The notes below the pieces were generated by a model. That model was given only the letters and a program-made list of their open reading frames with translations. It was not told the DNA's origin and made no database searches. This document shows, one piece after another, positions 21,725-64,000 of a stretch of DNA of 64,000 bases. A program made the position numbers and the translations under genes. Every line of letters starts with the position of its first letter. The first letter of the stretch is position 1. The DNA is from an uncultured Arcobacteraceae bacterium. Lineage in GTDB: Bacteria; Campylobacterota; Campylobacteria; Campylobacterales; Arcobacteraceae. The stretch lies in contig CAXHZO010000009.1 of NCBI GenBank assembly GCA_964022095.1, positions 1 through 64,000 on the forward strand, read 5' to 3'.

Positions 21725-23050
21725 ATGAGTATGTTTTGTTATCAATGTGAGATGAGTCAAAATGGTGGTTGTGGTAGTACTGGTGCAGTAGTTGGAACGT
21801 GTGGAAAAGATGAGAACCTAGCAAGACTACAAGATATAATGATATTTGGATTAAAAGGTCTTAGTGCATATAGAGAGCATTTAAATACTTTTAAGCCAGA
21901 ACTTACAAAAGAAGTTGATGATGTTATGTCTGAGACATTGTACTTCACTCTTACAAATGTAAATTTTAATTTTCAAGATCATATTAATCAACTTATGAAA
22001 GTAGGAAATGCAGGTGTAAAAGTTATGAGTTATTTAGGTGAAGCGCATATGAATAAATTTGGTATTCCAACTCCAGTTAAAGTTACTCAAAACAAAGTTG
22101 AGGGAAAAGCTATTTTAGTTTCTGGACATGACTTAGAGTTCTTTGAGAAACTTCTTATTGCAACACAAGATAAAGGTATCAATATCTATACTCACTCAGA
22201 AATGCTTCCAGCTCATGGGTATCCTGAATTAAGAAAATTCAAGCATTTAAAAGGAAATGTAGGAAAAGCATGGTTTGACCAAGCAAAACTTATGGAAAAA
22301 TTTCCTGGAACTTTTGTGGTAAACACTAACTGTATCGTTCCTCCAAAAAAGAATTGTGATTATATTGATAGAGTATTTACTCACAAAATCGTAGGAATAG
22401 AAGGTTCCACGCCAATTATTGACTATAATTTTGATGAATTAATTGAAAAAACACTATCTTGCCCAGATGCAAATGGAGTTGATTTAAATGAAGATAAATT
22501 CTTAACAACAGGACATAACTACAAAACTGTTTTAACACTAGCCCCATAAATATTAAAGGCATTAGAAGAAGGAAAAATCAAACAATTCTTTGTAGTAGCA
22601 GGTTGTGATGCACCTGGTCGTGGTGGAGAATACTATAGAGAATTAACACAAAATCTTCCAAAAGATACAGTAATCTTAACTTCATCTTGTGGTAAATTTA
22701 GATTCAATGATATTGATTTTGGTGAAATAGAAGGAACAGGTATTCCTAGATACCTAGACTTAGGACAATGTAATGACTCTTATGGAGCAGTTGAAATTGC
22801 AAAAGCCTTAAGTGATGCACTTGATACTCCAATAAATGACTTACCAGTATCAATTATATTATCATGGATGGAACAAAAAGCAGTAATTATTTTATTAGCT
22901 CTATTCTCACTTGGAGTTCAAAATATTTATTTAGGACCTAAACCTCCACAATTTGTTAACGAAGATATATTTAATTTCTTGGCTGAAAACTTTAACTTAA
23001 CACTTACAAGTGATGCAAAAACAGATTTAGAAAAACTATTAATCGCATAA
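21725..23050 (+). pseudogene. hcp: Hybrid cluster protein (hydroxylamine reductase), interrupted by a single in-frame TAA at 22547-22549
   Basis: MFCYQCE, SGHDL, HSEMLPAHGYP; after the stop the same frame continues ILKALEEGKIKQFFVVAGCD...SCGK...GQCND...SWMEQKA to 23050. Confidence 0.9.
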
Positions 23051-23077
23051 AAAATAGGAAGTTTAACTTCCTATTTT
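23051..23077. terminator. Bidirectional intrinsic terminator between hcp and the convergent ORF
   Basis: AAAATAGGAAG-TTTAA-CTTCCTATTTT. Confidence 0.75.
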
Positions 23078-23322
23078 AATACTTCTATCCAAAAAAATTT
23101 ATTCATATTTGGTTTTAAAACTGTTTTCCAACCAAAAGAAGTAGAATGTAAATATAAAACACCTCCTATATATTTAAAAGATACCTCTTTTTGACTCTCT
23201 TCTCCAAAAACCATAGAGAATACAGCATAGATATATTCTCCATCTTTTTCTAAAGAGTACTTGAAGTTATCAAAATCACTTAATTCTTTATCTAAAAACT
23301 CTTTTATTTCTTTCATAAACAC
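23071..23322 (-). CDS. Hypothetical protein (83 aa)
   Basis: Fills the gap between convergent and divergent genes; plausible composition; no recognised motif. Confidence 0.6.
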   Translation of the reverse strand: MFMKEIKEFLDKELSDFDNFKYSLEKDGEYIYAVFSMVFGEESQKEVSFKYIGGVLYLHSTSFGWKTVLKPNMNKFFWIEVLK

Positions 23323-23405
23323 CTTTCGATAATTTTTCTTATTTTAAATTTATTATCCTTTTCAATTGCTTTTTTTTGTGATAGAATTTAACAAAAGGAG
23401 TAACT

Positions 23406-31708: not shown

Positions 31709-32611
31709 TTGCCGTTCGTTCTAAAGAAATTTAAAGTAATAAAAAATAAAACAATACAGATAAGTCTACTCCAAGATTTAGACCTTGACCGCCGTCAATC
31801 CAGTCGTTTACTTAGTCGTGGAAGAATTTTCAGAAGCGATAATAGTGCTTATAAAATATCAGATATTATTAAAGAAGATTATATTTATATTGCCATATTT
31901 GAAGGGCATACTAGAGGTTTAAAACCACTATTTACAACACCTAATTTTGCTATATTTGACAAGCCTTCAAATTTAGTAATTCATCCAAACTCAAAAAAGA
32001 CAAAATATTCACTTTTAGATGAGATAAGATACCACTTTGGAGATAAGGCAAATCAAGCACATAGAATTGATGCTGAAACTTCAGGACTAGTATTAATAGG
32101 AAGAAATGAGAAAGTTACAAACTCACTTGCTACAATGTTTGAAGAAAAAGAGTACAAAAAATCTTATCTTGCAATAGTAAGAGGAGAAATAACACAAGAT
32201 ATAACAATTGATAAGAACTTAAAAAAAGAGGGGAAATCAATTGGAGTTAAGATGGCTACATGTGAAAAAGAAGAGGGAAAAAGTTCGATTACAATTATAA
32301 AACCTCTTAAATATAACCATATAAATAACTTAACTTTAGTAGAAGCTATTCCAATTACAGGAAGACAACATCAAATTAGAATTCATCTTCACTCAATTGG
32401 ACATACAATATTTGGAGATCCAATTTATGGAGTAAGTGAAGATATAGCACAAAGTTATCTAAACAAAGATTTAAGTGATGAAAATAGATTTGAAGCTAGC
32501 GGATCTTATAGATTATGGCTTCAAGCAAACTATTTAGAGTTTACATATAAAGGTGTGATTTATAAGATATTTTCAAAAAACAAAGATATATTAGCTCAAT
32601 TTGAATCTTGA
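31709..32611 (+). CDS. RluA-family pseudouridine synthase
   Basis: HRIDAETSG, TGRQHQIRIH, GDPIYG; probable TTG start at 31709 after AGGA. Confidence 0.9.
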   Translation: MPFVLKKFKVIKNKTIQISLLQDLDLDRRQSSRLLSRGRIFRSDNSAYKISDIIKEDYIYIAIFEGHTRGLKPLFTTPNFAIFDKPSNLVIHPNSKKTKYSLLDEIRYHFGDKANQAHRIDAETSGLVLIGRNEKVTNSLATMFEEKEYKKSYLAIVRGEITQDITIDKNLKKEGKSIGVKMATCEKEEGKSSITIIKPLKYNHINNLTLVEAIPITGRQHQIRIHLHSIGHTIFGDPIYGVSEDIAQSYLNKDLSDENRFEASGSYRLWLQANYLEFTYKGVIYKIFSKNKDILAQFES

Positions 32612-34252
32612 TAAATCTTTGCCTTTTGTATCTATAATATGTACCGCACAAGCTAAACAAGGGTCAAAAGAGTGAATAACTTTTAAAACCTCAAGTGGCT
32701 TTGATAAATCTTCAATTTTTAGACCTATTAAAGCTTCTTCATATGCACCTCTTATTCCATCATAGTTTTTAGGAGTTGCGTTCCATGTTGTTGGGGCTAT
32801 TACTTGATAGTTTTTTACTTTTGAGTCTTTTATATTAACACTATGCAGTAAAACACCCCTTGGAACTTCTAAAAAACAACTATCATTTACATCTTTTTTT
32901 AAAGACTCAAACTTATAGCTATTAAAAGTTTGTGTGTCATCATATTTTATATTTTGAATTAAATTTGACATTAGTTTAAAGATATATTCACAAATATATT
33001 GGCTTTCAATTGCCCTTGCTATATTTCTTCCAATAGTACAATTCAAATCTTCTAGTTTTAAATCAACGCTTTGTAAAAACTCATCTACAAAACTATTTAT
33101 TGCTGTATCATTATTCTTATAACTAATAAGAATCCTTGCTATTGGACCTGTTTCCATAGTCATATTTTCATATCTAGGTGCTTTTATCCAAGAGTATTTA
33201 TCATTTTCCTTACTTGTCTTTAGGGTTCCATCATCATTTAAATCTGTATAAAATGGCTCTTGAGGATTTTCATCATCATACCAAGCTCTTTGGACTAACT
33301 CTGTGATTTTGGAACTGTCAAACTCTTTTATCACATCTAAATTATCATCAAAAACTACACCACTTGAAAATAGTTTTTTTTCACTAGATATTTCATATCC
33401 ACCAACACACAAATAGTTTCCTAAAGTTTTTCCAACTTTTTCTTTTATCTCATCTTTATAGGCTATTGTTAAAAGCTTCATATCAGGGATATAAGCTCTA
33501 TTTATAAACTCACTTGCTTCTTTTATAACAAATAAAAAATCATTTAATCTTTGTGGATTTATCATATCAGCAACACTTGTAACTCCACCAACAACTATTG
33601 ATTGAGGGTGGGGCGTTTTTCCACCAAAAATAGCTATAGCTTTTGATATTTTTGTTTGAAAAGTTAATGCTTCAAAATAATGAGATAGTAAAATCAAGTT
33701 TTCTTCACTACTTAGCTTATAATCACTATGACCAAAATAGTTACTATTAAAAGGTCCTAATTTTCCTGCATCAATAAAGTTTTTTAACTTTTGTAAAATA
33801 GTTTCATAGTGGGAGTGCGAATTTCTAAAAGGATGAGAACTATACTTATGTGCTTCTTTTGAAGTTTGTTTTACATCAGCTTCTAAAGCTTTAGTAACAT
33901 CTATAAAATCAAGTAAATGCAACTGATAAAAGTGTACAACATGGTCTTGAATAAACAAAGCCATACTCATCAAGTCTCTAATTATTTGGGCATTTTTAGG
34001 AACTTTAATATCATAGGCATTTTCAACTGCACTTACACTTGCTCTAAAATGTGAATTTGTACAAACACCACAAATACGACCAGCAATTAGTCCAATATCC
34101 CTTGGATCTCTATCTTGTAAGATGATTTCAAGTCCACGAAACAACTGCCCACTAGCATATGCTTCTTTAACAATGTTTTGTTCATCTACTTCAACTTCAA
34201 CTCTTAAATGACCTTCAATTCTTGTAATTGGATCAATAACTAGCTTTTTCAT
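32591..34252 (-). CDS. [NiFe]-hydrogenase large subunit (group 1-like)
   Basis: IDPITRIEGH, L1 RICGVC, L2 FDPCLACAVH followed by a 15-aa cleavable tail; YSWIKAPRY, EVPRG. Confidence 0.93.
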   Translation of the reverse strand: MKKLVIDPITRIEGHLRVEVEVDEQNIVKEAYASGQLFRGLEIILQDRDPRDIGLIAGRICGVCTNSHFRASVSAVENAYDIKVPKNAQIIRDLMSMALFIQDHVVHFYQLHLLDFIDVTKALEADVKQTSKEAHKYSSHPFRNSHSHYETILQKLKNFIDAGKLGPFNSNYFGHSDYKLSSEENLILLSHYFEALTFQTKISKAIAIFGGKTPHPQSIVVGGVTSVADMINPQRLNDFLFVIKEASEFINRAYIPDMKLLTIAYKDEIKEKVGKTLGNYLCVGGYEISSEKKLFSSGVVFDDNLDVIKEFDSSKITELVQRAWYDDENPQEPFYTDLNDDGTLKTSKENDKYSWIKAPRYENMTMETGPIARILISYKNNDTAINSFVDEFLQSVDLKLEDLNCTIGRNIARAIESQYICEYIFKLMSNLIQNIKYDDTQTFNSYKFESLKKDVNDSCFLEVPRGVLLHSVNIKDSKVKNYQVIAPTTWNATPKNYDGIRGAYEEALIGLKIEDLSKPLEVLKVIHSFDPCLACAVHIIDTKGKDLSRFKLS

Positions 34253-34256
34253 TTTA

Positions 34257-36680
34257 TTAATCCTCATCTTCTTTTATATAAACTCTTTCGTTTGCAAACT
34301 TATCTATAAAGTTCATCTCTGTACAAGCCATACATCCATGACCAGCTTGAACTGGCCAAGAAGTGCCTTCATTAAATTTTGCTAAAGGACAGTTTACATT
34401 TGCATAAGGACCTTTACATCCCATTTGAAATAAACACCATCCATTCTTAGCTCCTTCATCTCCCCATTGCTCTACAAACTCTCCAAGTTCATAATGTCCA
34501 CGTCTCTCACAATTATCATGAACTCTTTGAGAATACGCCCATAATGGACGATTTTGTTTATCAAGTGCTGGTAATTCTTCAAACATCATATAAGATAGTA
34601 GTGTTCCAACTATATTTATAGGATTAGTGGGACATCCTGGAAGATTAATAATATCATCTCTATTAAGTGCTTGAGAAACTCCAACTGCACCTGTTGGATT
34701 TGGCTTAGCAGCAACCACTCCACCATCATAAGCGCAACTTCCAACTGCTAAAACTAGTGCTGCATCTTTAGCACAGTTTTGTAAAAGTTCAAGTCCAGTT
34801 TGACCTTTTGGGCCTATTCTTAAAAACTTGCCATCAAGTCCAAGGGGAATTGCTCCTTCTACTATTAAAATATATTCACCTTTTGAATTTTCTATAATAT
34901 CTTCTAAAATTGATTCACTAAAATCTCCACTAGAACTCATAAGTAATTCATGATAATCAAGTGAAATATAATCAAATATTAAATCTTCAATTGCTGGATT
35001 TGCTGATTTGATAAAGGCTTCACTATTTCCACTACAATCTGCAAGCTCTAACCATATAATAGGAATTTTATTTAAGTTTTTCACCCCATCTTCTACTACA
35101 CTTTCAAAAGAGGGATGAAGTTTCATACTAGCAGTTACCATAGAAATCCAACTATTTACCTCATCTTTTGCAAGATCTATCATTTTTAAAGCTGCTTCTA
35201 GGTTATTCTCATCAAGTTTATTTTTTGGATGTAGTCTTTTGAACTTCTCTACTCTTTTTTTAGCTTGATCTAACTCTTTTTCTCTTTGTATATCTTCAGG
35301 TGTCTTTCTTTTGATTGTAGGACAAGTTAAACTTTGAGAAGATTCAATAAGCTTTACAACATCATTTTTACATCTACCACAAACGCGTCCTGCTTGAGAA
35401 TACTCTTTTAAAGAAGAAAAAGAATCAATACCACACCTTGCAACTAAATCCTCTAAATCTTTTTCATAAGTATGTTCACAAGCACAAATAAGTCTACCTC
35501 TTTGACCTAATTGTCTATTTTCATATAGATAATTTACATCTATATTTTCACCTTTTTTTATAAGCTCTTCTATATACCCTGTATCAATATTTGAGTTAAC
35601 TCCTAAAAATTTAACTAACTTGTCATCTTTTATAAAATATTCATCAACTCTATTATTAGAAGGTGATTCAATTAAAAGTTTTTCAAACTCTTTTGTAAAA
35701 CTTGGGGAAGATATTTCAACTAATTCAAAACCTTTTGATTTGAGCATATCTACTGTTACTTCAAGTTCATAAGGGACATCATCTTCATTTAGTATATGTG
35801 ATATTGCAATATTAGCTTGATTTGTACACTCTTTTACATGACCTGCTGTGAAATTGTATTTTTCAACTTGTGCACACTCTCCAATAGCATATATATCACT
35901 CTCATTAGTTTGCATATACTCATTTACTAAAATTCCTCTATCTATATTTACAAACTCTTTAAAAGCTTTAGCATTTGGTTTTATACCTATACCAAATATC
36001 ACAAAAGGATTTCGAATTGTTAGTTTCTTTGTTTTTAAAACTTTTATCTCGCTATCTTCAATAAGTGAGTTTTTTACATCTATTTCATCATTATATGAGA
36101 TAGTTAAATTTTTATTCTCTTTTAAAATATTTTCAATAATCTTTACAGAGTTTGAAGATAAGTATTTACTATATAAATAATTACTTCTAATAAGTAGTGT
36201 AATACTTTGTTTTAAAGCTAAAGTATTTAAGGTCTCTAATAACTCTAGTGATATTGGACCACTTCCTACTATTACTATATTATTTGTGTTGTAGTATTTC
36301 TTTATCTTTTCACAATCATCAATACTTCTAAACACTGCACTATTTTTAATATTAGAATCAAGTAAAGTTATTGGTGTAGAGCCAGTTGCTATTACTAACT
36401 TATCATAACTATATACTTCATTATTAGATGTAATAGTTTTATTTTGTTTATCAATTGATTTTATATTTTGATTTAATTTTAGTTGAACTTTATTGTTAAG
36501 TTCTAATTGTATTGAATCTGTATTATCATTTCCATCTATTAAATTACATAAATAGACTCTATCATAAGGAGCTTTTTTTTCATTACTTAGCATAACTATA
36601 TTACAAGAACTATCTCTTGATAAAATAGTATTTGCAAAGTAAGTAGCGGCTATTCCACCACCTATTATTACTATATTCAT
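34257..36680 (-). CDS. Fusion: NirB-like FAD/NAD(P)H oxidoreductase + BFD-like [2Fe-2S] + [NiFe]-hydrogenase small subunit
   Basis: GGGIAA, PYDR, ATGS, IYAIGECA; CAC...CGRC; then WLELADCSGNSE, GSCA, PGCP, HDNCERR, WCLFQMGCKGP, GHGCMAC; no twin-arginine signal. Confidence 0.9.
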   Translation of the reverse strand: MNIVIIGGGIAATYFANTILSRDSSCNIVMLSNEKKAPYDRVYLCNLIDGNDNTDSIQLELNNKVQLKLNQNIKSIDKQNKTITSNNEVYSYDKLVIATGSTPITLLDSNIKNSAVFRSIDDCEKIKKYYNTNNIVIVGSGPISLELLETLNTLALKQSITLLIRSNYLYSKYLSSNSVKIIENILKENKNLTISYNDEIDVKNSLIEDSEIKVLKTKKLTIRNPFVIFGIGIKPNAKAFKEFVNIDRGILVNEYMQTNESDIYAIGECAQVEKYNFTAGHVKECTNQANIAISHILNEDDVPYELEVTVDMLKSKGFELVEISSPSFTKEFEKLLIESPSNNRVDEYFIKDDKLVKFLGVNSNIDTGYIEELIKKGENIDVNYLYENRQLGQRGRLICACEHTYEKDLEDLVARCGIDSFSSLKEYSQAGRVCGRCKNDVVKLIESSQSLTCPTIKRKTPEDIQREKELDQAKKRVEKFKRLHPKNKLDENNLEAALKMIDLAKDEVNSWISMVTASMKLHPSFESVVEDGVKNLNKIPIIWLELADCSGNSEAFIKSANPAIEDLIFDYISLDYHELLMSSSGDFSESILEDIIENSKGEYILIVEGAIPLGLDGKFLRIGPKGQTGLELLQNCAKDAALVLAVGSCAYDGGVVAAKPNPTGAVGVSQALNRDDIINLPGCPTNPINIVGTLLSYMMFEELPALDKQNRPLWAYSQRVHDNCERRGHYELGEFVEQWGDEGAKNGWCLFQMGCKGPYANVNCPLAKFNEGTSWPVQAGHGCMACTEMNFIDKFANERVYIKEDED

Positions 36681-39004: not shown

Positions 39005-40078
39005 CTACTTGCAAGGTGTAACATTAGTAACTTTTACTACATAATCTTCTGCTTTACAGCCAAGTTTTGGTGAAACTTGTTTTGTATCACCAAAACAACC
39101 ACCTGCATTACTAACCATAGTCTCCATTACACCCTTAGCTCTTTGAGTATAATCATTTTTACATGTAGCCATAAATGAAACATCAATACAAGAAACGGGC
39201 CTTGGTGAATATTTAGGAATTATCCCTCCAACATGATGCTCACCATAACAATTTTTTGCGGCTAATTTGATTGTATTTTTTAACTTTGTCAAATATTGCT
39301 GTTTTTCTCTTTCTTTTCTTCGTTTCTCTTCTTTTCTTTTTAGCTCTTTTTCTTTTTTTAATCTTTCTCTTTGAAGTTTCTTTTTCTTAATTTCTTCTTC
39401 TCTTTTTTTTAGTTTTAATTCTTTTTGCTTTTTGCTTTGCTCTTCAATCTTTTGCTTTTCTAATTCTCTTTTCTTTTGTTCATATTTTTTATTATAGTCA
39501 TTTTGAGAATAAGTATTTTGTGATTTATAACTACTAGAATTAGAGTAGTTCTTTTTATTAGCACTATTAATTAAAGCATTTAATTGAGCTTGTGATTTTT
39601 GATTTATTTGTTGCTGTTTTTTTATACTATTATTCATAGAAGTCATTAATAACTTGTAGTTTAGCTGATCTTGTTTTTGCTTAGCAATTCTTCTTTTTTT
39701 TGCTTCTTGTTCTCTTCTTACTTTCTCTCTTTGTTTTCTTTTATATTTTCTTTCATCATTTTTTATTTCATTTTTTATTTTAGAGACTTTATTATTATCA
39801 AAATTCATAGAATAAGCATTATCTAAAATTTTATATGCACTTGTAAAGTAGTAATTATAAGACTTACTTTTGGCATCTTTTATTAATTTATCAAACTTTA
39901 TTTTTTGTTTATTATGATTTTCGGCACTTTGCATACTGTCCATAAAATCATCACTTTGCATTTTTTGATTCTCTTTAATTTTAACACTTTTTGATTCTCC
40001 AAAAATATCATCAAATTCATTTGAAAATAAAAAACTAAATGAAAATACACAAAGAATTACAAATTTTTTAATAAACAT
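39005..40078 (-). CDS. Exported protein: long K/E/Q coiled coil plus C-terminal six-Cys domain
   Basis: Signal peptide; charged coiled coil; six Cys in the last ~85 aa. Confidence 0.7.
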   Translation of the reverse strand: MFIKKFVILCVFSFSFLFSNEFDDIFGESKSVKIKENQKMQSDDFMDSMQSAENHNKQKIKFDKLIKDAKSKSYNYYFTSAYKILDNAYSMNFDNNKVSKIKNEIKNDERKYKRKQREKVRREQEAKKRRIAKQKQDQLNYKLLMTSMNNSIKKQQQINQKSQAQLNALINSANKKNYSNSSSYKSQNTYSQNDYNKKYEQKKRELEKQKIEEQSKKQKELKLKKREEEIKKKKLQRERLKKEKELKRKEEKRRKEREKQQYLTKLKNTIKLAAKNCYGEHHVGGIIPKYSPRPVSCIDVSFMATCKNDYTQRAKGVMETMVSNAGGCFGDTKQVSPKLGCKAEDYVVKVTNVTPCK

Positions 40079-40087
40079 AATTAACCT

Positions 40088-40597
40088 TTAATATAATACT
40101 TTTTCCTCTCCTCTAACACAAATTATTCTACTTAATTTAGACTTCTTAGTATTATAAGAGCTTATCGATCCGTATCTATATGATAAACCTAAATATTGAC
40201 CTTTTGAATTTAATGTTGAAGACATAAAATTATCACTTTTCCCTGGCAATATTTGAAGACCTTTAAATTCATTTTTTATCATAGTTCTATAACTATTTTT
40301 ATATCCTCTCAACCAACTATTTTTTTTACTATAATCTATTAGTGTTACTAACTCTTTTATACTTGGTATTCGCCAATCATCATATCCTGCTAAAACTAAA
40401 TCATTACAAAAAGGCTTACTTCCATTATAAGTACCTGAGTACCATGGTGGCCTTTTATCATCTCTCCACATTAGACCTGTATGTTTATCAAGAAAAACTT
40501 GCTTAGGGTTTTTTGAAGCTATATATAAACTTGGAGCTGAACTTCCACAACCTACAAAAAAAACAATTGTTGCTAATAATAAAATATAAACTCTCAT
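40088..40597 (-). CDS. DUF1566 (Lcl C-terminal-like) lipoprotein
   Basis: Lipobox FVGC; DKHTGLMW, C...LAGYDDWRIPSIKEL, ICVR. Confidence 0.8.
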   Translation of the reverse strand: MRVYILLLATIVFFVGCGSSAPSLYIASKNPKQVFLDKHTGLMWRDDKRPPWYSGTYNGSKPFCNDLVLAGYDDWRIPSIKELVTLIDYSKKNSWLRGYKNSYRTMIKNEFKGLQILPGKSDNFMSSTLNSKGQYLGLSYRYGSISSYNTKKSKLSRIICVRGEEKVLY

Positions 40598-40606
40598 TTT
40601 AAACCT

Positions 40607-41332
40607 TTATTTAAATTTTCTTACACATCTAACATATGCTTTAGTTGATATTGAGGTACTAACTATATGGCCAGAAGAGTTTGAAAAGTAGTATTTATAT
40701 TTAGAATTACCATCTTTAATAAACTGATAATTATATTTATAAAGTACATTCTTAAACTCTTTTTTAATAGCAGGTGTTTGTGAAAAGTCCATAATAGTCA
40801 TAACTTGATTTGCTGTTGGAAGTGTCCAATCACTATAAGCATTTAAATTTAACTTTTTACAATAATTAGCAGCGCCATAAGCAGTTGTTCTAAAAGATAC
40901 AACATCATAATCATCTTGCCACATTAAGCCTGTTGCTTTATCTTTTACAACTCTATTTTTAGACTCTTCTTTTTTTGCTTCTATTCTCTTCGCTTTTTTA
41001 TATTTTGGTTCAACCTCTAGATATAATTTTAATGCTTCTTGATAAAATCTTCCAGAATTACCTGCAACATCAATATAATACTCTAATGAATTAAATGATT
41101 TTATGTAATCTTTTGTCTTATAATAAGCCTTACCTTCCCAAAAAACTAATGATATAGGAATATTATTATCTATTTTTTTCCACTCATTTATAGATGAAAT
41201 TATTTGTGCATAGTTACCTTTTTTTTGTTGTTCAACTAACTTTATCTTTAAAATATCAATCTTTGCTTGATTTGACAATGCAAATAAACTACTTCCCATA
41301 AATAGGAAAATAATAAAAAATAATTTATTCAT
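40607..41332 (-). CDS. Exported TPR-like + DUF1566 protein
   Basis: Signal peptide; helical TPR-like N-terminal half; DKATGLMWQ, YC...YSDWTLPT, VRCVR. Confidence 0.8.
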   Translation of the reverse strand: MNKLFFIIFLFMGSSLFALSNQAKIDILKIKLVEQQKKGNYAQIISSINEWKKIDNNIPISLVFWEGKAYYKTKDYIKSFNSLEYYIDVAGNSGRFYQEALKLYLEVEPKYKKAKRIEAKKEESKNRVVKDKATGLMWQDDYDVVSFRTTAYGAANYCKKLNLNAYSDWTLPTANQVMTIMDFSQTPAIKKEFKNVLYKYNYQFIKDGNSKYKYYFSNSSGHIVSTSISTKAYVRCVRKFK

Positions 41333-59998: not shown

Positions 59999-62347
<2,349 letters not shown>

Positions 62348-63418
62348 CTATTTTTCTAAAACAATTGGCATAACGATTGTTCTAAATTTTTCATCTTGTA
62401 AGTAGAATGGTAAATTTGATTCATTAAATCCTACTGCAATTTTTTCATTGTCAGTCATACTTAAAAAGTCTAATAAATATTTTGCATTTACTGCTAAGAA
62501 AAACTCTTCTTGGATATTTAAATCTATGTCTACTTGTGTTTTTGATTCTGTATCTTCATCTAAAGATTCAAACATAATACTATTAGGAGAGAATGTAATT
62601 TTAATGTTTGAAAATAAAGAAGTTACTAATTTAATTGATTCAACTAAAATATTTTTTGGTAATTCAAAATTATGTTTTAAAGTATTTGGAATAATTCTTT
62701 CATAATCAGGGAACTTACCATTAATTAGTTTTGTAAAGAATTTTGTATTATCATTTGAAATTACTAAATTAGTATCATCATATGAAATTTTAGCATCATC
62801 TAAAAACAGTTTTTGAATTTCAATAATTGCTTTTTTAGGAATAATAAATTGTGTTTCTTCATTAGATATATTTTGTAATTGAGATACTGCTAATCTTCTA
62901 GTATCAGTTGCAACAAAATTTATTTTAGAAGTTTTAATATCTAATAATGCACCATTTAATTCAAATTTAGGATTATTGTTATCAATAGCTGGTGTTATTC
63001 TTCTAATAGAAGTAATAAAATTTAAAGTAGAAATTGATAAATCTTTTAAATCAGTAGTTTTACTAATATTTGGATATTCATTAGCATCATACATTGGTAA
63101 TTTAAAAGTAGATTTTTTCTGTTTAATGATTAAATTACTACCAGAAGTTTCTATTAGTATTTCTTCATTTTTTAATCTTTTAATAATACCTAGTAAGTTA
63201 GAACCATTTACTGTTGCTTTTCCATCTGCACAATCTGTTATGCTATCTATTTTAGATTCTAAACCAATTTCATAGTCTGTTGCTTTTAAGTTAAGACTAT
63301 CATTAGTTGTTTCTAAATAGATATGTGATGTAATTGAACTTGCATCTTTTTTTTCTAAAAAAGGTTGCATATGCGCTACTACATTTTCAAAAACATTTTT
63401 TGTAATTACGAACCTCAT
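62348..63418 (-). CDS. dnaN: DNA polymerase III beta clamp
   Basis: ATDYE, VATDTRRL, GKFPDY, IVMPI; between dnaA and gyrB. Confidence 0.97.
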   Translation of the reverse strand: MRFVITKNVFENVVAHMQPFLEKKDASSITSHIYLETTNDSLNLKATDYEIGLESKIDSITDCADGKATVNGSNLLGIIKRLKNEEILIETSGSNLIIKQKKSTFKLPMYDANEYPNISKTTDLKDLSISTLNFITSIRRITPAIDNNNPKFELNGALLDIKTSKINFVATDTRRLAVSQLQNISNEETQFIIPKKAIIEIQKLFLDDAKISYDDTNLVISNDNTKFFTKLINGKFPDYERIIPNTLKHNFELPKNILVESIKLVTSLFSNIKITFSPNSIMFESLDEDTESKTQVDIDLNIQEEFFLAVNAKYLLDFLSMTDNEKIAVGFNESNLPFYLQDEKFRTIVMPIVLEK

Positions 63419-63587
63419 TTTATCTCCTAATATATTTTATTAATCTAGTAGAAATAGTAGACCATGTGAAAAGATGAAAACACATCTTAAACTACTTGGT
63501 AGTAGTACTTTGTCATAGTGAATAGAATTGACTTTATATTCACACCTTTTCACATTTACTTTTAAAACTTTTTTTTAAAAGCTTTTT
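63419..63587. other. oriC: oriC2 subregion of the bipartite replication origin
   Basis: DnaA-box-like 9-mers with TTCAC core at 63465-63473, 63517-63525, 63536-63544 and 63546-63554; TAG-TAG-AAA-TAG-TAG trios at 63446-63460 beside an AT-rich stretch. Confidence 0.8.
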
Positions 63588-64000
63588 CTACCACTCCTTA
63601 TTTATGATTTTATTCTTTAAATTTTCAATGATTAATTTAAAGTTTTCATCTTTTTCAATTAGTTCATTTGCTTTTTTAATATTATGCGAAATTGAACTGT
63701 GATCTTTCATTCCTAAGAATTTTGCAATATCTGGCATTGAGTTATGTGTTAACTCACGAGCTAGATAGATAACAACTCTTCTAGCATTAGCTACAGTTGC
63801 TGTTCTTTTCTTAGATTTGATATCACTTGGCTTGATATTTAATTCATTTGCGACAATATTAATTACATCTGGTAATTTAATATTCTCTTTGTTCTCTTTT
63901 ATTTGCTCTTTTAATAAGCCATGTACCATTTCTATGGTAATTTCTTGGTTTAAAAGAGAAGCACTTGCATTAATTCTAATTAATACACCTTCAATTTCTC
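63588..64000 (-). CDS. dnaA: Chromosomal replication initiator, C-terminal part (runs off the window)
   Basis: Domain IV: IKSKKRTATVANARR...SMPDIAKFLGMKDHSSI. Confidence 0.95.
   Translation of the reverse strand, partial: EIEGVLIRINASASLLNQEITIEMVHGLLKEQIKENKENIKLPDVINIVANELNIKPSDIKSKKRTATVANARRVVIYLARELTHNSMPDIAKFLGMKDHSSISHNIKKANELIEKDENFKLIIENLKNKIINKEW

What the first reader, a model, noticed from the sequence alone, without database searches (positions are those of the whole stretch)
32591..36680. Tat-less group 1-type [NiFe]-hydrogenase whose small subunit is fused to an NAD(P)H flavoprotein and a BFD [2Fe-2S] domain
Seen: the 807-aa ORF is one open frame. It contains a NirB/rubredoxin-reductase-like FAD module (GGGIAA, PYDR, ATGS, second Rossmann GSGPIS, IYAIGECA), a BFD-like CAC...CGRC cluster, a charged linker and a complete hydrogenase small subunit. 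The large subunit follows 4 nt later with intact L1/L2 nickel motifs. There is no RRxFxK signal, no membrane anchor, and no cytochrome b or protease gene in the two-gene unit. Established: group 1 hydrogenases are normally exported and quinone-linked, while NAD(P)-linked hydrogenases (groups 3b/3d) use separate, unrelated diaphorase subunits. Inference: this is a two-polypeptide cytoplasmic H2:NAD(P)+ oxidoreductase with an internal wire Ni-Fe > FeS chain > [2Fe-2S] > FAD, an independent route to pyridine-nucleotide coupling. I recall similar fusions being noted in other Campylobacterota genomes but know of no biochemical characterisation.
Basis: partly seen in the sequence, partly recalled or inferred. 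Interest (0 to 1): 0.85.

Follow-up and report, generated by a model that had tools for sequence, protein, structure and literature searches.

The report
Flavoprotein-fused cytoplasmic nickel-iron hydrogenase
This Arcobacter-like marine bacterium carries a two-gene nickel-iron hydrogenase whose small subunit is fused to an NAD(P)H-type flavoprotein, a design that genome papers have described since 2006 but that nobody has yet tested at the bench.

Summary
On the minus strand, an 807-aa gene (34257-36680) fuses four parts: a ferredoxin-reductase/NirB-like FAD-NAD(P)H module, a BFD [2Fe-2S] domain, a linker and a group-1-type hydrogenase small subunit. The large subunit follows 4 nt later.

The fusion is not an assembly artefact. 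All 120 best database hits share the architecture, as do 57 loci from named Arcobacter, Sulfurimonas, Sulfurovum and Sulfuricurvum genomes.

It is not new. Scott et al. 2006 described the same two-domain, Tat-less small subunit in Thiomicrospira crunogena XCL-2 and drew the same H2:NAD(H) inference. Hansen & Perner 2016 reported it in Sulfurimonas autotrophica, Sulfuricurvum, Sulfurovum and Arcobacter nitrofigilis, and classed the large subunit as group 1b. I found no biochemical characterisation. This scan noted the same type three times before, on other genomes.

Details added here:
- The linker is the relic of the Tat signal peptide.
- 10 of 11 Fe-S ligands are invariant, but the second proximal Cys is an invariant Asn.
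- An invariant Arg replaces the NADH-type acidic residue, which suggests NADP(H).
- There is a family-specific invariant Cys45.
- A sister genome has the gene split by IS elements.

Most likely function: a cytoplasmic, reversible H2:NAD(P)+ oxidoreductase (confidence 0.55, inferred).

The parts
34257..36680 (-). Gene for the 807-aa fused small subunit (stop codon included)
   Evidence: ORF and translation. Four Pfam domains. The same architecture occurs in all 120 best hits and in 57 loci.
35496..36680 (-). Residues 1-395: FAD/NAD(P)H flavoprotein of the ferredoxin-reductase / NirB N-terminal type. FAD Rossmann GGGIAA 7-12, second Rossmann GSGPIS 139-144, IYAIGECA 263-270.
   Evidence: Pfam Pyr_redox_2 1-276 and NirB TIGR02374 3-447. 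The AF2 model has pLDDT mostly 74-97 over 1-470. Foldseek best matches are putidaredoxin reductase, BphA4 and TodA, with target TM 0.79-0.84 over about 405-411 columns.
36546..36548 (-). Codon of Cys45 (PYDRVYLC), invariant in the fused family and specific to it
   Evidence: Invariant in 51 of 51 sequences and 40 of 40. In 15 NirB-family relatives the aligned residue is S (10), A (2), T (2) or I (1). It aligns with the Ser of PdR 'PPLSK', 3 residues after the catalytic Cys of CoA-disulfide reductase 3cgb.
36186..36188 (-). Codon of Arg165, at the end of strand beta-2 of the NAD(P) Rossmann fold (TLLIRSN)
   Evidence: Invariant. In the PdR alignment the NADH-type Asp (TLLD) lies opposite Ile164, and Arg165 follows. 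NirB-family relatives have H or E here. The NADP(H) preference is an inference.
35343..35492 (-). Residues 397-446: BFD-like [2Fe-2S] domain with C399, C401, C434, C437
   Evidence: Pfam Fer2_BFD. All four Cys are invariant in 51 of 51 sequences.
35061..35300 (-). Residues 461-540: linker, the relic of the N-terminal pre-sequence and Tat signal of a Campylobacterota-type small subunit. The own enzyme reads 'IDRRGFIKW'; here it reads 'AKDEVNSW'.
   Evidence: BLASTP of the whole protein: 468-793 matches residues 4-326 of the genome's own group-1 small subunit at 48% identity, colinear. The linker alone matches the first 74 residues at E 2e-6. TIGR00391 matches from model position 2. N509, W511, S513, M514, T516, M519, L521 and P523 are invariant.
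34260..35060 (-). Residues 541-807: hydrogenase small-subunit core. Proximal cluster C549, N552 (in place of Cys), C649, C683. Distal cluster H721, C724, C749, C755. Medial cluster C764, C783, C786 (WPV, 3Fe type). No C-terminal membrane anchor.
   Evidence: Pfam. Ligands are invariant in 51 of 51 sequences. The two PDB alignments printed (variants of one protein, the uptake-hydrogenase small subunit HoxK) read C-T-G-C where this protein reads C-S-G-N.
35025..35027 (-). Codon of Asn552, replacing the second Cys ligand of the proximal cluster
   Evidence: D-C-S-G-N-S-E is invariant.
32591..34252 (-). Large-subunit gene read from the second ATG (553 aa; the ORF from the first ATG at 34267 gives 558 aa), stop codon included
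   Evidence: PF00374 at E 5e-190. The best solved relatives are periplasmic [NiFe] hydrogenases (1h2a_L at 443 bits, 4u9h_L at 433 bits), well ahead of Huc (164 bits) and 5aa5 (124 bits). RIEGH is fully invariant. The Ni-ligand Cys and the His of both motifs are invariant. Each of the two motifs has one position conserved in at least 90% but not all of 42 fused-type large subunits.
32594..32638 (-). 15-residue C-terminal extension after His543 (IIDTKGKDLSRFKLS), the piece normally removed by a maturation endopeptidase
   Evidence: The site 'VHIIDT' is identical to that of one of the genome's cytochrome-b-linked large subunits. Only two HycI-type proteases exist in the genome, both on contig C7.
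34261..34265 (-). GAGGA Shine-Dalgarno-like sequence 8 nt before the large-subunit ATG at 34252, lying inside the end of the small-subunit gene
   Evidence: Sequence read directly.

Best explanation
This is a cytoplasmic, two-polypeptide [NiFe]-hydrogenase of group-1b ancestry.

Proposed origin: a ferredoxin-reductase/NirB-type FAD module with its own BFD [2Fe-2S] domain was fused in front of the unprocessed small-subunit precursor. That destroyed the Tat signal, which survives as a conserved linker. The C-terminal membrane anchor and the cytochrome b partner were lost.

Proposed mechanism (inferred, not shown):
1. H2 is split at the Ni-Fe site of the large subunit.
2. Electrons pass through the proximal cluster (3 Cys plus Asn), the medial [3Fe-4S]-type cluster and the His-ligated distal cluster.
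3. They reach the tethered [2Fe-2S] domain, then FAD.
4. FAD passes a hydride to NAD(P)+, probably NADP+.

The reaction should be reversible. At high H2 it would supply NAD(P)H without reverse electron flow. At low H2 and high NAD(P)H it could vent reductant as H2.

In this genome the pair is an orphan operon. It must borrow the Hyp machinery and one of the two endopeptidases of the membrane-bound hydrogenases on another contig.
For: Shown by sequence:
- One frame holds all four domains.
- The fusion is universal in the family: all 120 best hits, 57 loci, and a single cluster at 50% identity.
- The large subunit lies directly behind the small subunit in 49 of 57 loci.
- Conservation is strong: 210 of 807 columns are invariant in 51 sequences, including 10 of 11 Fe-S ligands and the four BFD Cys. 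The four Ni-ligand Cys are invariant in 42 fused-type large subunits.
- The Tat motif is replaced and the anchor is absent.
- The N-terminal module folds like NADH:[2Fe-2S]-ferredoxin reductases. Its nearest sequence family is the NirB N-terminal module, which feeds electrons from NAD(P)H through FAD and a BFD cluster.
- The module has no acidic residue at the end of beta-2 and has an invariant Arg165.

From papers:
- The same reading was given for XCL-2.
- The orthologous large-subunit gene of strain SP-41 is transcribed most strongly when H2 is the only electron donor.

Established knowledge: E0' of H+/H2 (-414 mV) lies below that of NAD(P)+/NAD(P)H (-320 mV), so the reaction is feasible at high H2.
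Against: - No activity has been shown anywhere. XCL-2 has only this hydrogenase. It consumed no H2 under any tested condition, and neither its soluble nor its membrane fraction had uptake activity. SP-41 also had no soluble activity.
- The proximal cluster lacks one Cys. In Huc, three-Cys clusters are [3Fe-4S] and sit about 250 mV higher in potential. Together with a 3Fe-type medial cluster, that would make reduction of NAD(P)+ harder.
- The gene is dispensable in at least one close relative, where it is split by IS elements.
- Five of 57 loci have the fused gene without a large subunit behind it.
- This genome and a family relative lack the ATP-citrate-lyase marker. The role 'reductant for reverse-TCA CO2 fixation' therefore cannot be general.
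- The invariant Cys45 and Cys285 have no role in this model.
Confidence: 0.55

Rival explanations
1. The chemistry is the same but the physiological direction is reversed. The enzyme would be a reductant valve that oxidises excess NAD(P)H and evolves H2 when electron acceptors are scarce.
For: Scott et al. 2006 proposed this as an alternative for XCL-2. XCL-2 never consumed H2. Carriers such as this genome lack the ATP-citrate-lyase marker and may be heterotrophs with surplus reductant. At environmental H2 levels the H+/H2 couple is less negative than NAD(P)H (established thermodynamics).
Against: In SP-41 the orthologue is induced when H2 is the sole donor. Group-1b-type enzymes with a 3Fe medial cluster, and here possibly a 3Fe proximal cluster, are usually biased toward H2 oxidation (inference). 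In 13 of 57 loci the pair sits in front of a group-4 hydrogenase cluster, which is itself a candidate H2 producer.
Confidence: 0.2
2. The flavoprotein module does not serve NAD(P) turnover as the main output. It might pass H2 electrons to another acceptor at the flavin, such as O2, peroxide, a quinone, or a thiol, persulfide or polysulfide compound through the invariant Cys45. Or it might use NAD(P)H only to keep the hydrogenase reductively activated.
For: Cys45 and Cys285 are invariant and absent from NirB-family relatives. Cys45 lies one helical turn after the position of the catalytic Cys of CoA-disulfide reductase. CoA-disulfide reductase and NADH oxidase models score nearly as well as ferredoxin reductases. 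Persulfide reductases also appear among the fold matches. The hosts are sulfur-cycling bacteria.
Against: Cys45 is not at the catalytic position itself. The second Rossmann fold and its Arg165 are conserved, which points to a real pyridine-nucleotide site. The best fold matches are ferredoxin reductases, and the tethered [2Fe-2S] domain completes that pairing.
Confidence: 0.12
3. It is a decaying or inactive remnant of a periplasmic hydrogenase that lost its Tat signal, anchor, cytochrome b and proper Fe-S binding.
For: Hansen & Perner 2016 raised this for XCL-2 and stated that the subgroup-specific Fe-S motifs are not conserved. No activity was found in XCL-2. The gene is IS-disrupted in the sister genome G156. 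One family genome (G183) has an in-frame stop, and two more (G182, G156) are broken into pieces.
Against: Only one of 11 cluster ligands differs, and that Asn is itself invariant. 210 of 807 columns are invariant across several families of bacteria. Intact full-length copies occur in 18 of 184 family genomes and in 26 of 401 sampled class genomes, 18 of 34 in one family. The orthologue in SP-41 is transcribed and regulated.
Confidence: 0.05

Closest known systems
XCL-2-type hydrogenase of Hydrogenovibrio (Thiomicrospira) crunogenus (Tcr2037/2038). It is called 'hydrogenase gene cluster I' by Gonnella et al. 2019, and its hynL is called 'cluster II' by Hansen & Perner 2016.
   Same: A small subunit of about 810 aa combines a pyridine-nucleotide-disulfide-oxidoreductase domain (FAD and NAD(P)H sites) with a small-subunit domain. 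There is no Tat motif and no cytochrome b. The large subunit has 1b-type L1/L2 motifs and a non-canonical L3. The 2016 paper names S. autotrophica and Arcobacter nitrofigilis as carriers. The S. autotrophica protein is hit P0069 here: 807 aa, 63% identical, same domains.
   Different: In XCL-2 the two genes sit inside an uninterrupted hyp/maturation operon. Here they are an orphan pair between an MFS transporter gene and rluA. I could not fetch the XCL-2 sequence itself, so identity to it was not measured.
Group 1b periplasmic, cytochrome-b-linked uptake [NiFe]-hydrogenases (Wolinella HydABC type, Desulfovibrio vulgaris/gigas enzymes), including the two such enzymes in this genome
   Same: The large subunit is most similar to these among solved structures and is 44% identical to the genome's own two. 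The small-subunit core is 48% identical and colinear. The medial and distal cluster ligands are the same. The C-terminal extension for endopeptidase cleavage is present.
   Different: There is no twin-arginine motif, no C-terminal anchor and no cytochrome b gene. The proximal cluster reads C-x-G-N instead of C-x-G-C. A 460-residue flavoprotein plus [2Fe-2S] module sits in front.
NAD(P)-linked soluble [NiFe]-hydrogenases, groups 3d (Cupriavidus necator HoxFUYH) and 3b (Pyrococcus sulfhydrogenase)
   Same: The proposed overall reaction (H2 + NAD(P)+) and the cytoplasmic location are the same (inference).
   Different: Those enzymes use separate diaphorase or FeS-flavoprotein subunits (Scott et al. 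as read). That these subunits are NuoF/NuoE-like is established knowledge. The large subunit here is not of group 3: the sulfhydrogenase models score 70-111 bits, against 450-490 bits for group-1 models.
N-terminal module of assimilatory nitrite reductase NirB, and putidaredoxin reductase with putidaredoxin
   Same: The path NAD(P)H to FAD to [2Fe-2S] is the same, and the fold is the same. The domain order Pyr_redox then BFD matches NirB.
   Different: Identity to any stand-alone or NirB protein is only 24-35%. Every closer relative is a hydrogenase fusion or a fragment of one. Cys45, Cys285 and the Arg165 signature are family-specific.

Membership tests
Flavoprotein-fused 'XCL-2-type' hydrogenase (Scott 2006; Hansen & Perner 2016) | Small subunit of about 800 aa that joins a pyridine-nucleotide-disulfide-oxidoreductase domain to a hydrogenase small-subunit domain | tested here: met
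   Pfam and NCBIfam. The protein is 63% identical to the S. autotrophica protein (P0069) that the 2016 paper lists as a carrier.
Flavoprotein-fused 'XCL-2-type' hydrogenase (Scott 2006; Hansen & Perner 2016) | No twin-arginine leader and no cytochrome b gene with the structural genes | tested here: met
Flavoprotein-fused 'XCL-2-type' hydrogenase (Scott 2006; Hansen & Perner 2016) | Direct sequence identity to Tcr2037/Tcr2038 | not tested
Group 1 (subgroup 1b) [NiFe]-hydrogenase in the Greening/HydDB scheme | Large-subunit L1 (xxRICGVCTxxH) and L2 (DPCxACxVH) motifs and closest similarity to 1b prototypes | tested here: met
   Motifs. The best solved relatives are periplasmic [NiFe] hydrogenases. 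The published 1b assignment covers orthologues. HydDB itself and a tree with reference subgroups were not run.
Group 1 (subgroup 1b) [NiFe]-hydrogenase in the Greening/HydDB scheme | Tat-exported small subunit, periplasmic orientation, membrane or cytochrome partner | tested here: not met
   RRGFIKW is replaced by KDEVNSW. There is no anchor and no cytochrome b.
Group 1 (subgroup 1b) [NiFe]-hydrogenase in the Greening/HydDB scheme | Canonical ligands of the proximal (4 Cys), medial (3 Cys) and distal (His + 3 Cys) clusters | tested here: not met
   10 of 11 ligands are present. The second proximal Cys is an invariant Asn552.
NAD(P)-reducing soluble hydrogenases (groups 3b/3d) | Group-3 large subunit plus separate diaphorase subunits of the HoxF/HoxU or sulfhydrogenase beta/gamma type | tested here: not met
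   Group-3 models score far below group-1 models. No such genes adjoin the pair. The whole genome was not searched for HoxFU.
Ferredoxin-NAD(P)+ reductase / NirB N-terminal flavoprotein module | Two Rossmann folds (FAD, NAD(P)H), a GD-type motif, a ferredoxin-reductase fold and a four-Cys BFD [2Fe-2S] domain | tested here: met
Ferredoxin-NAD(P)+ reductase / NirB N-terminal flavoprotein module | Bound FAD and NAD(P)H oxidoreductase activity | not testable with these tools
   This needs purified protein.

The most novel reading that the evidence does not exclude
The enzyme may be more than a simple H2:NAD(P)+ oxidoreductase. Two features are invariant across the family. One is the flavin-side Cys45, with Cys285. 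The other is a proximal cluster reduced to three Cys plus Asn, possibly a high-potential [3Fe-4S] as in Huc. Together they could mark a group-1-derived cytoplasmic hydrogenase that delivers H2 electrons to a thiol, persulfide or polysulfide substrate, or to O2, at the flavin. NAD(P)H would then serve only as a secondary or activating partner. That would be a 'sulfhydrogenase' invented independently in sulfur-cycling Campylobacterota and Hydrogenovibrio.
Probability: 0.08. Interest if true: 0.8.

Novelty: new member of a known kind. Interest (0 to 1): 0.4.

Why it matters
If the proposed activity were shown, this would be the smallest known pyridine-nucleotide-linked [NiFe]-hydrogenase, with two polypeptides. 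It would also be the only one built from a group-1 enzyme. It would show how a periplasmic respiratory enzyme was turned into a cytoplasmic reductant generator by one gene fusion.

A likely NADP(H) preference would interest people who use H2-driven cofactor recycling.

Ecologically, the type is common in one sampled family of vent and sediment Campylobacterota (18 of 34 genomes). In the Sulfurimonas comparisons whose passages I read, hydrogenases are tabulated only by group and the fusion is not mentioned. Budgets of H2-driven respiration may therefore be overstated where this gene is counted that way.

For this window itself the finding is an ordinary further member of a type that is already in print and still untested.

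Tried and rejected
- Docking of the N-terminal module (residues 1-460) against the small-subunit core (536-807) with complex prediction gave no verdict: scores 0.14 and 0.01 against a mark of 0.32. It is not used as evidence either way.
- The whole-protein AF2 model is confident only for residues 1-470. The small-subunit half is mostly below pLDDT 50. No cluster-to-FAD geometry could be read, and the tools give no coordinates.
- Search for RNA data: no RNA holder was listed among 23 runs.
- The large-subunit tree finished only as a quick tree within the time limit. Its root is set by a very long group-2-like branch. The apparent nesting of the three cytochrome-b-linked large subunits inside the fused-type set (support 86) is therefore not trusted. 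I use only the 100% support for that three-member clade and the pairwise identities.
- I could not obtain the XCL-2 protein or any Gammaproteobacterial fused member. Searches returned only Campylobacterota-type fused proteins, and the one Gammaproteobacterial locus (L063) holds a normal small subunit.
- HydDB is not available here.
- The first ATP-citrate-lyase search had no positive control. It was repeated with three carriers from other families as positive controls.
- I considered and dropped flavin-based electron bifurcation. The module has a single Fe-S exit and a putidaredoxin-reductase fold.
- I considered an assembly artefact or chimeric ORF. It is rejected.

Full report
**What is there**

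Two adjacent genes lie on the minus strand.

The first (34257-36680) encodes 807 residues in one frame. Pfam finds four domains:
- Pyr_redox_2 at 1-276
- Fer2_BFD at 397-446
- Oxidored_q6 at 549-696
- NiFe_hyd_SSU_C at 716-796

NCBIfam finds the hydrogenase small-subunit model over 490-796, above its cut-off. It finds the NirB model over 3-447, covering only that model's N-terminal 467 of 794 positions and scoring below its cut-off.

The second gene (PF00374, E 5e-190) carries RIEGH, RICGVCTNSH and DPCLACAVH, then a 15-residue C-terminal extension. Its likely start is the second ATG at 34252. That ATG lies 4 nt after the small-subunit stop, has a GAGGA 8 nt upstream, and is where most homologues begin to align.

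The neighbours are an MFS transporter gene upstream and a convergent rluA-type gene, then purB and nrdAB. No cytochrome b, endopeptidase or hyp gene adjoins the pair. The rest of the window is housekeeping and ends at gyrB-dnaN-dnaA.

**The fusion is real and conserved**

- All 120 best hits of 726 in the 5.8-billion-protein collection are 801-819 aa long and 63-77% identical. All have the same four Pfam domains. Several are named, including Sulfurimonas autotrophica, S. gotlandica, S. lithotrophica, S. aquatica and 'Ca. S. marisnigri'.
- At 50% clustering the family collapses to one full-length representative plus fragments.
- A scan of one genome per species returned 57 loci with the fused gene (54-77% identity). 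The closest are Arcobacter sp. s6 and an Aliarcobacter MAG at 77%, with the same flanking genes as the window.
- The large subunit follows directly in 49 of 57 loci. In 3 loci the contig ends inside the small-subunit gene. In 5 loci (L025, L028, L031, L034, L054) other genes follow. Two loci (L042, L059) have interrupted frames, which I did not pursue.
- Among 184 genomes of the window's family, 18 have an uninterrupted full-length copy and 6 more have a partial or broken one.
- In an even sample of 401 genomes of the class, 27 carry it, one of them cut by a contig end. The counts by family are 18 of 34 in one family, 5 of 20 in another, 1 of 4 in a third, 2 of 23 plus the window's genome in its own family, and 0 of 118 and 0 of 158 in the two largest families.

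**It is already in print**

- Scott et al. 2006 (PMC1635747, passages read) describe the Thiomicrospira crunogena XCL-2 small subunit as having two domains. One is a small-subunit domain. [quoted passage not shown] They state that it lacks the twin-arginine leader. [quoted passage not shown]
- Hansen & Perner 2016 (PMC4744846, passages and all of section 13 read) give its length as 813 aa and place the large subunit in group 1b. [quoted passage not shown] - Gonnella et al. 2019 (PMC6501319, passages) find the same cluster in strain SP-41. They show by qRT-PCR that it is most expressed with H2 as sole donor. They note that no soluble activity was detected.

The link to the present protein is direct: the S. 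autotrophica protein is hit P0069 (807 aa, 63% identical, same domains).

Sulfurimonas reviews count hydrogenases by group and, in the passages I saw, do not mention the fusion (PMC4584964, PMC7952632).

Five literature searches found no biochemical characterisation. The library lacks most subscription journals, and Hansen & Perner 2015 (ISME J) was not read.

Three earlier notes of this scan describe the same type in other genomes. Two cite the 2006 paper. One said no paper describes it, which my reading contradicts.

A naming trap: the 2016 paper calls this hynL 'cluster II', while the 2019 paper calls the operon 'cluster I'.

1. Origin of the linker.
   - Residues 468-793 align colinearly with residues 4-326 of the genome's own cytochrome-b-linked small subunit at 48% identity.
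   - The alignment runs through that protein's pre-sequence, where 'IDRRGFIKW' faces 'AKDEVNSW'.
   - The linker alone (461-540) matches the first 74 residues at E 2e-6. Several of its positions are invariant in the family.
   - The fusion therefore captured a whole precursor. The Tat signal decayed into a conserved linker, and the last 59 residues (the anchor) were lost.
2. Fe-S ligands.
[quoted passage not shown] In fact 10 of 11 canonical ligands are invariant in 51 full-length sequences.
   - The one exception, the second proximal Cys, is an invariant Asn within D-C-S-G-N-S-E.
   - The two solved small-subunit alignments printed, which are variants of one protein (HoxK), read C-T-G-C.
   - For Huc, three-ligand clusters were assigned as [3Fe-4S], about 250 mV more positive (PMC10017518, passages). 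Whether that holds here is open.
3. Nucleotide site.
   - There is no acidic residue at the end of beta-2 of the second Rossmann fold, and Arg165 is invariant.
   - In the alignment with putidaredoxin reductase, its Asp faces Ile164.
   - This suggests NADP(H). It is an inference.
4. Family-specific cysteines.
   - Cys45 and Cys285 are invariant. The aligned position of Cys45 is S, A, T or I in 15 NirB-family relatives.
   - Cys45 lies three residues after the catalytic Cys position of CoA-disulfide reductase.
5. Relatives of the flavoprotein module.
   - It has no close free-standing relative. Every hit above 44% identity is a fused protein or a fragment of one.
   - The next hits are at 24-35% identity, 131 bits or less.
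6. Fold.
   - The AF2 model is confident for residues 1-470.
   - It matches putidaredoxin reductase, BphA4 and TodA at target TM 0.79-0.84.
7. Maturation.
   - The large subunit keeps a cleavable extension, and 'VHIIDT' is identical to one of the genome's group-1 large subunits.
   - The genome has only two HycI-type proteases, both beside the two cytochrome-b-linked hydrogenases on contig C7, together with HypF.
   - In 9 related loci a protease gene follows the large subunit.
8. Genomic context elsewhere.
   - In 13 of 57 loci a six-gene group-4 (Ech/Hyc-like) hydrogenase cluster follows on the same strand.
9. Host metabolism.
   - Three carriers from other families have the ATP-citrate-lyase marker.
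   - This genome (99.99% complete) and a family relative do not.
10. Loss in a close relative.
    - In the same-genus genome G156 the gene is split by about 2.9 kb of IS elements, while the large subunit is still intact.

**Relation to other hydrogenases**

- The large subunit scores best against periplasmic [NiFe] hydrogenases (443 and 433 bits). I recall these as the D. vulgaris Miyazaki enzyme, a 1b prototype. One search's text names 4U9H as that enzyme.
- It scores far better against those than against Huc (164 bits) or the 5aa5 enzyme (124 bits).
- It is 44% identical to the genome's two cytochrome-b-linked large subunits and 25% identical to its third, group-2-like one.
- The first His of the L3 motif is an invariant Gln. 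The window's copy also has Gln at the fourth His, where more than 90% of the family keep His.

**How it most likely works**

Shown: the parts list, their conservation, and the loss of export and anchoring signals.

Inferred: a cytoplasmic heterodimer in which electrons from H2 travel through the three clusters to the tethered [2Fe-2S] domain, then to FAD, then to NAD(P)+. The reaction would be reversible, with direction set by H2 pressure and the NAD(P)H ratio.

I put 0.55 on this. The main rivals are the same enzyme acting as an H2-evolving valve (0.2), a different acceptor at the flavin or a merely activating role for NAD(P)H (0.12), and an inactive relic (0.05).

The strongest evidence against any activity claim is the published failure to detect H2 uptake in XCL-2.

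**Verdict**

This is a further member, in an Arcobacter-like genome, of a described and still uncharacterised hydrogenase type.

Noticed in passing
L068 (G156:C1:26500-38500), insert at about L068:3020-5990: In the same-genus genome the fused small-subunit gene (94% identical over residues 261-807) is interrupted after about residue 221. The interrupting 2.9 kb carries a DDE transposase and an IS3-type orfA/orfB pair. The large-subunit ORF behind it is intact.
   Followed up: yes
L067:8033-10273 (G000 contig C15): This is a third, group-2-like hydrogenase of the genome: a small subunit of 294 aa without a Tat region and a large subunit of 450 aa that ends at the L2 His with no extension. It lies next to acnB/fumC and a dCache sensor protein. 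Its proximal motif is also C-N-G-N.
   Followed up: partly
L014, L017, L023, L024, L026, L027, L029, L032, L033, L036, L052, L055, L062 (downstream of the large subunit): A six-gene group-4 membrane hydrogenase cluster (NuoL-, NuoH-, NuoB-, NuoC- and NuoD-like genes plus a 2x[4Fe-4S] protein) follows the fused hydrogenase on the same strand in 13 of 57 loci. Possible functional coupling was not tested.
   Followed up: partly
L025, L028, L031, L034, L054: The fused small-subunit gene has no large-subunit gene behind it. Unrelated genes follow, for example an NB-ARC/TPR protein in L054 and an AAA-ATPase/PD-(D/E)XK protein in L034.
   Followed up: partly
window 21725-23405 (+): A 274-aa ORF matches only positions 123-358 of the 522-position hybrid-cluster protein (hydroxylamine reductase) model. 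About 850 nt with only one short ORF (60 aa) and none longer on either strand follow it. It looks like a truncated hcp gene.
   Followed up: partly
window 60002-63929 (-): gyrB, dnaN and the 3' end of dnaA lie here, so the hydrogenase pair sits about 27 kb from dnaA. In several relatives with complete contigs the fused gene is also at 30-55 kb.
   Followed up: no
proteins P0147, P0137, P0130, P0150, P0164, P0260: These are other unusually long hydrogenase small subunits (594-808 aa). They have the two small-subunit Pfam domains plus long stretches that match no Pfam family. They are different, undescribed extensions.
   Followed up: partly
window 39005-41332 (-): Two adjacent genes with Lcl C-terminal domains (169 and 241 aa) lie next to a 357-aa ORF that matches no Pfam or NCBIfam family.
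   Followed up: no
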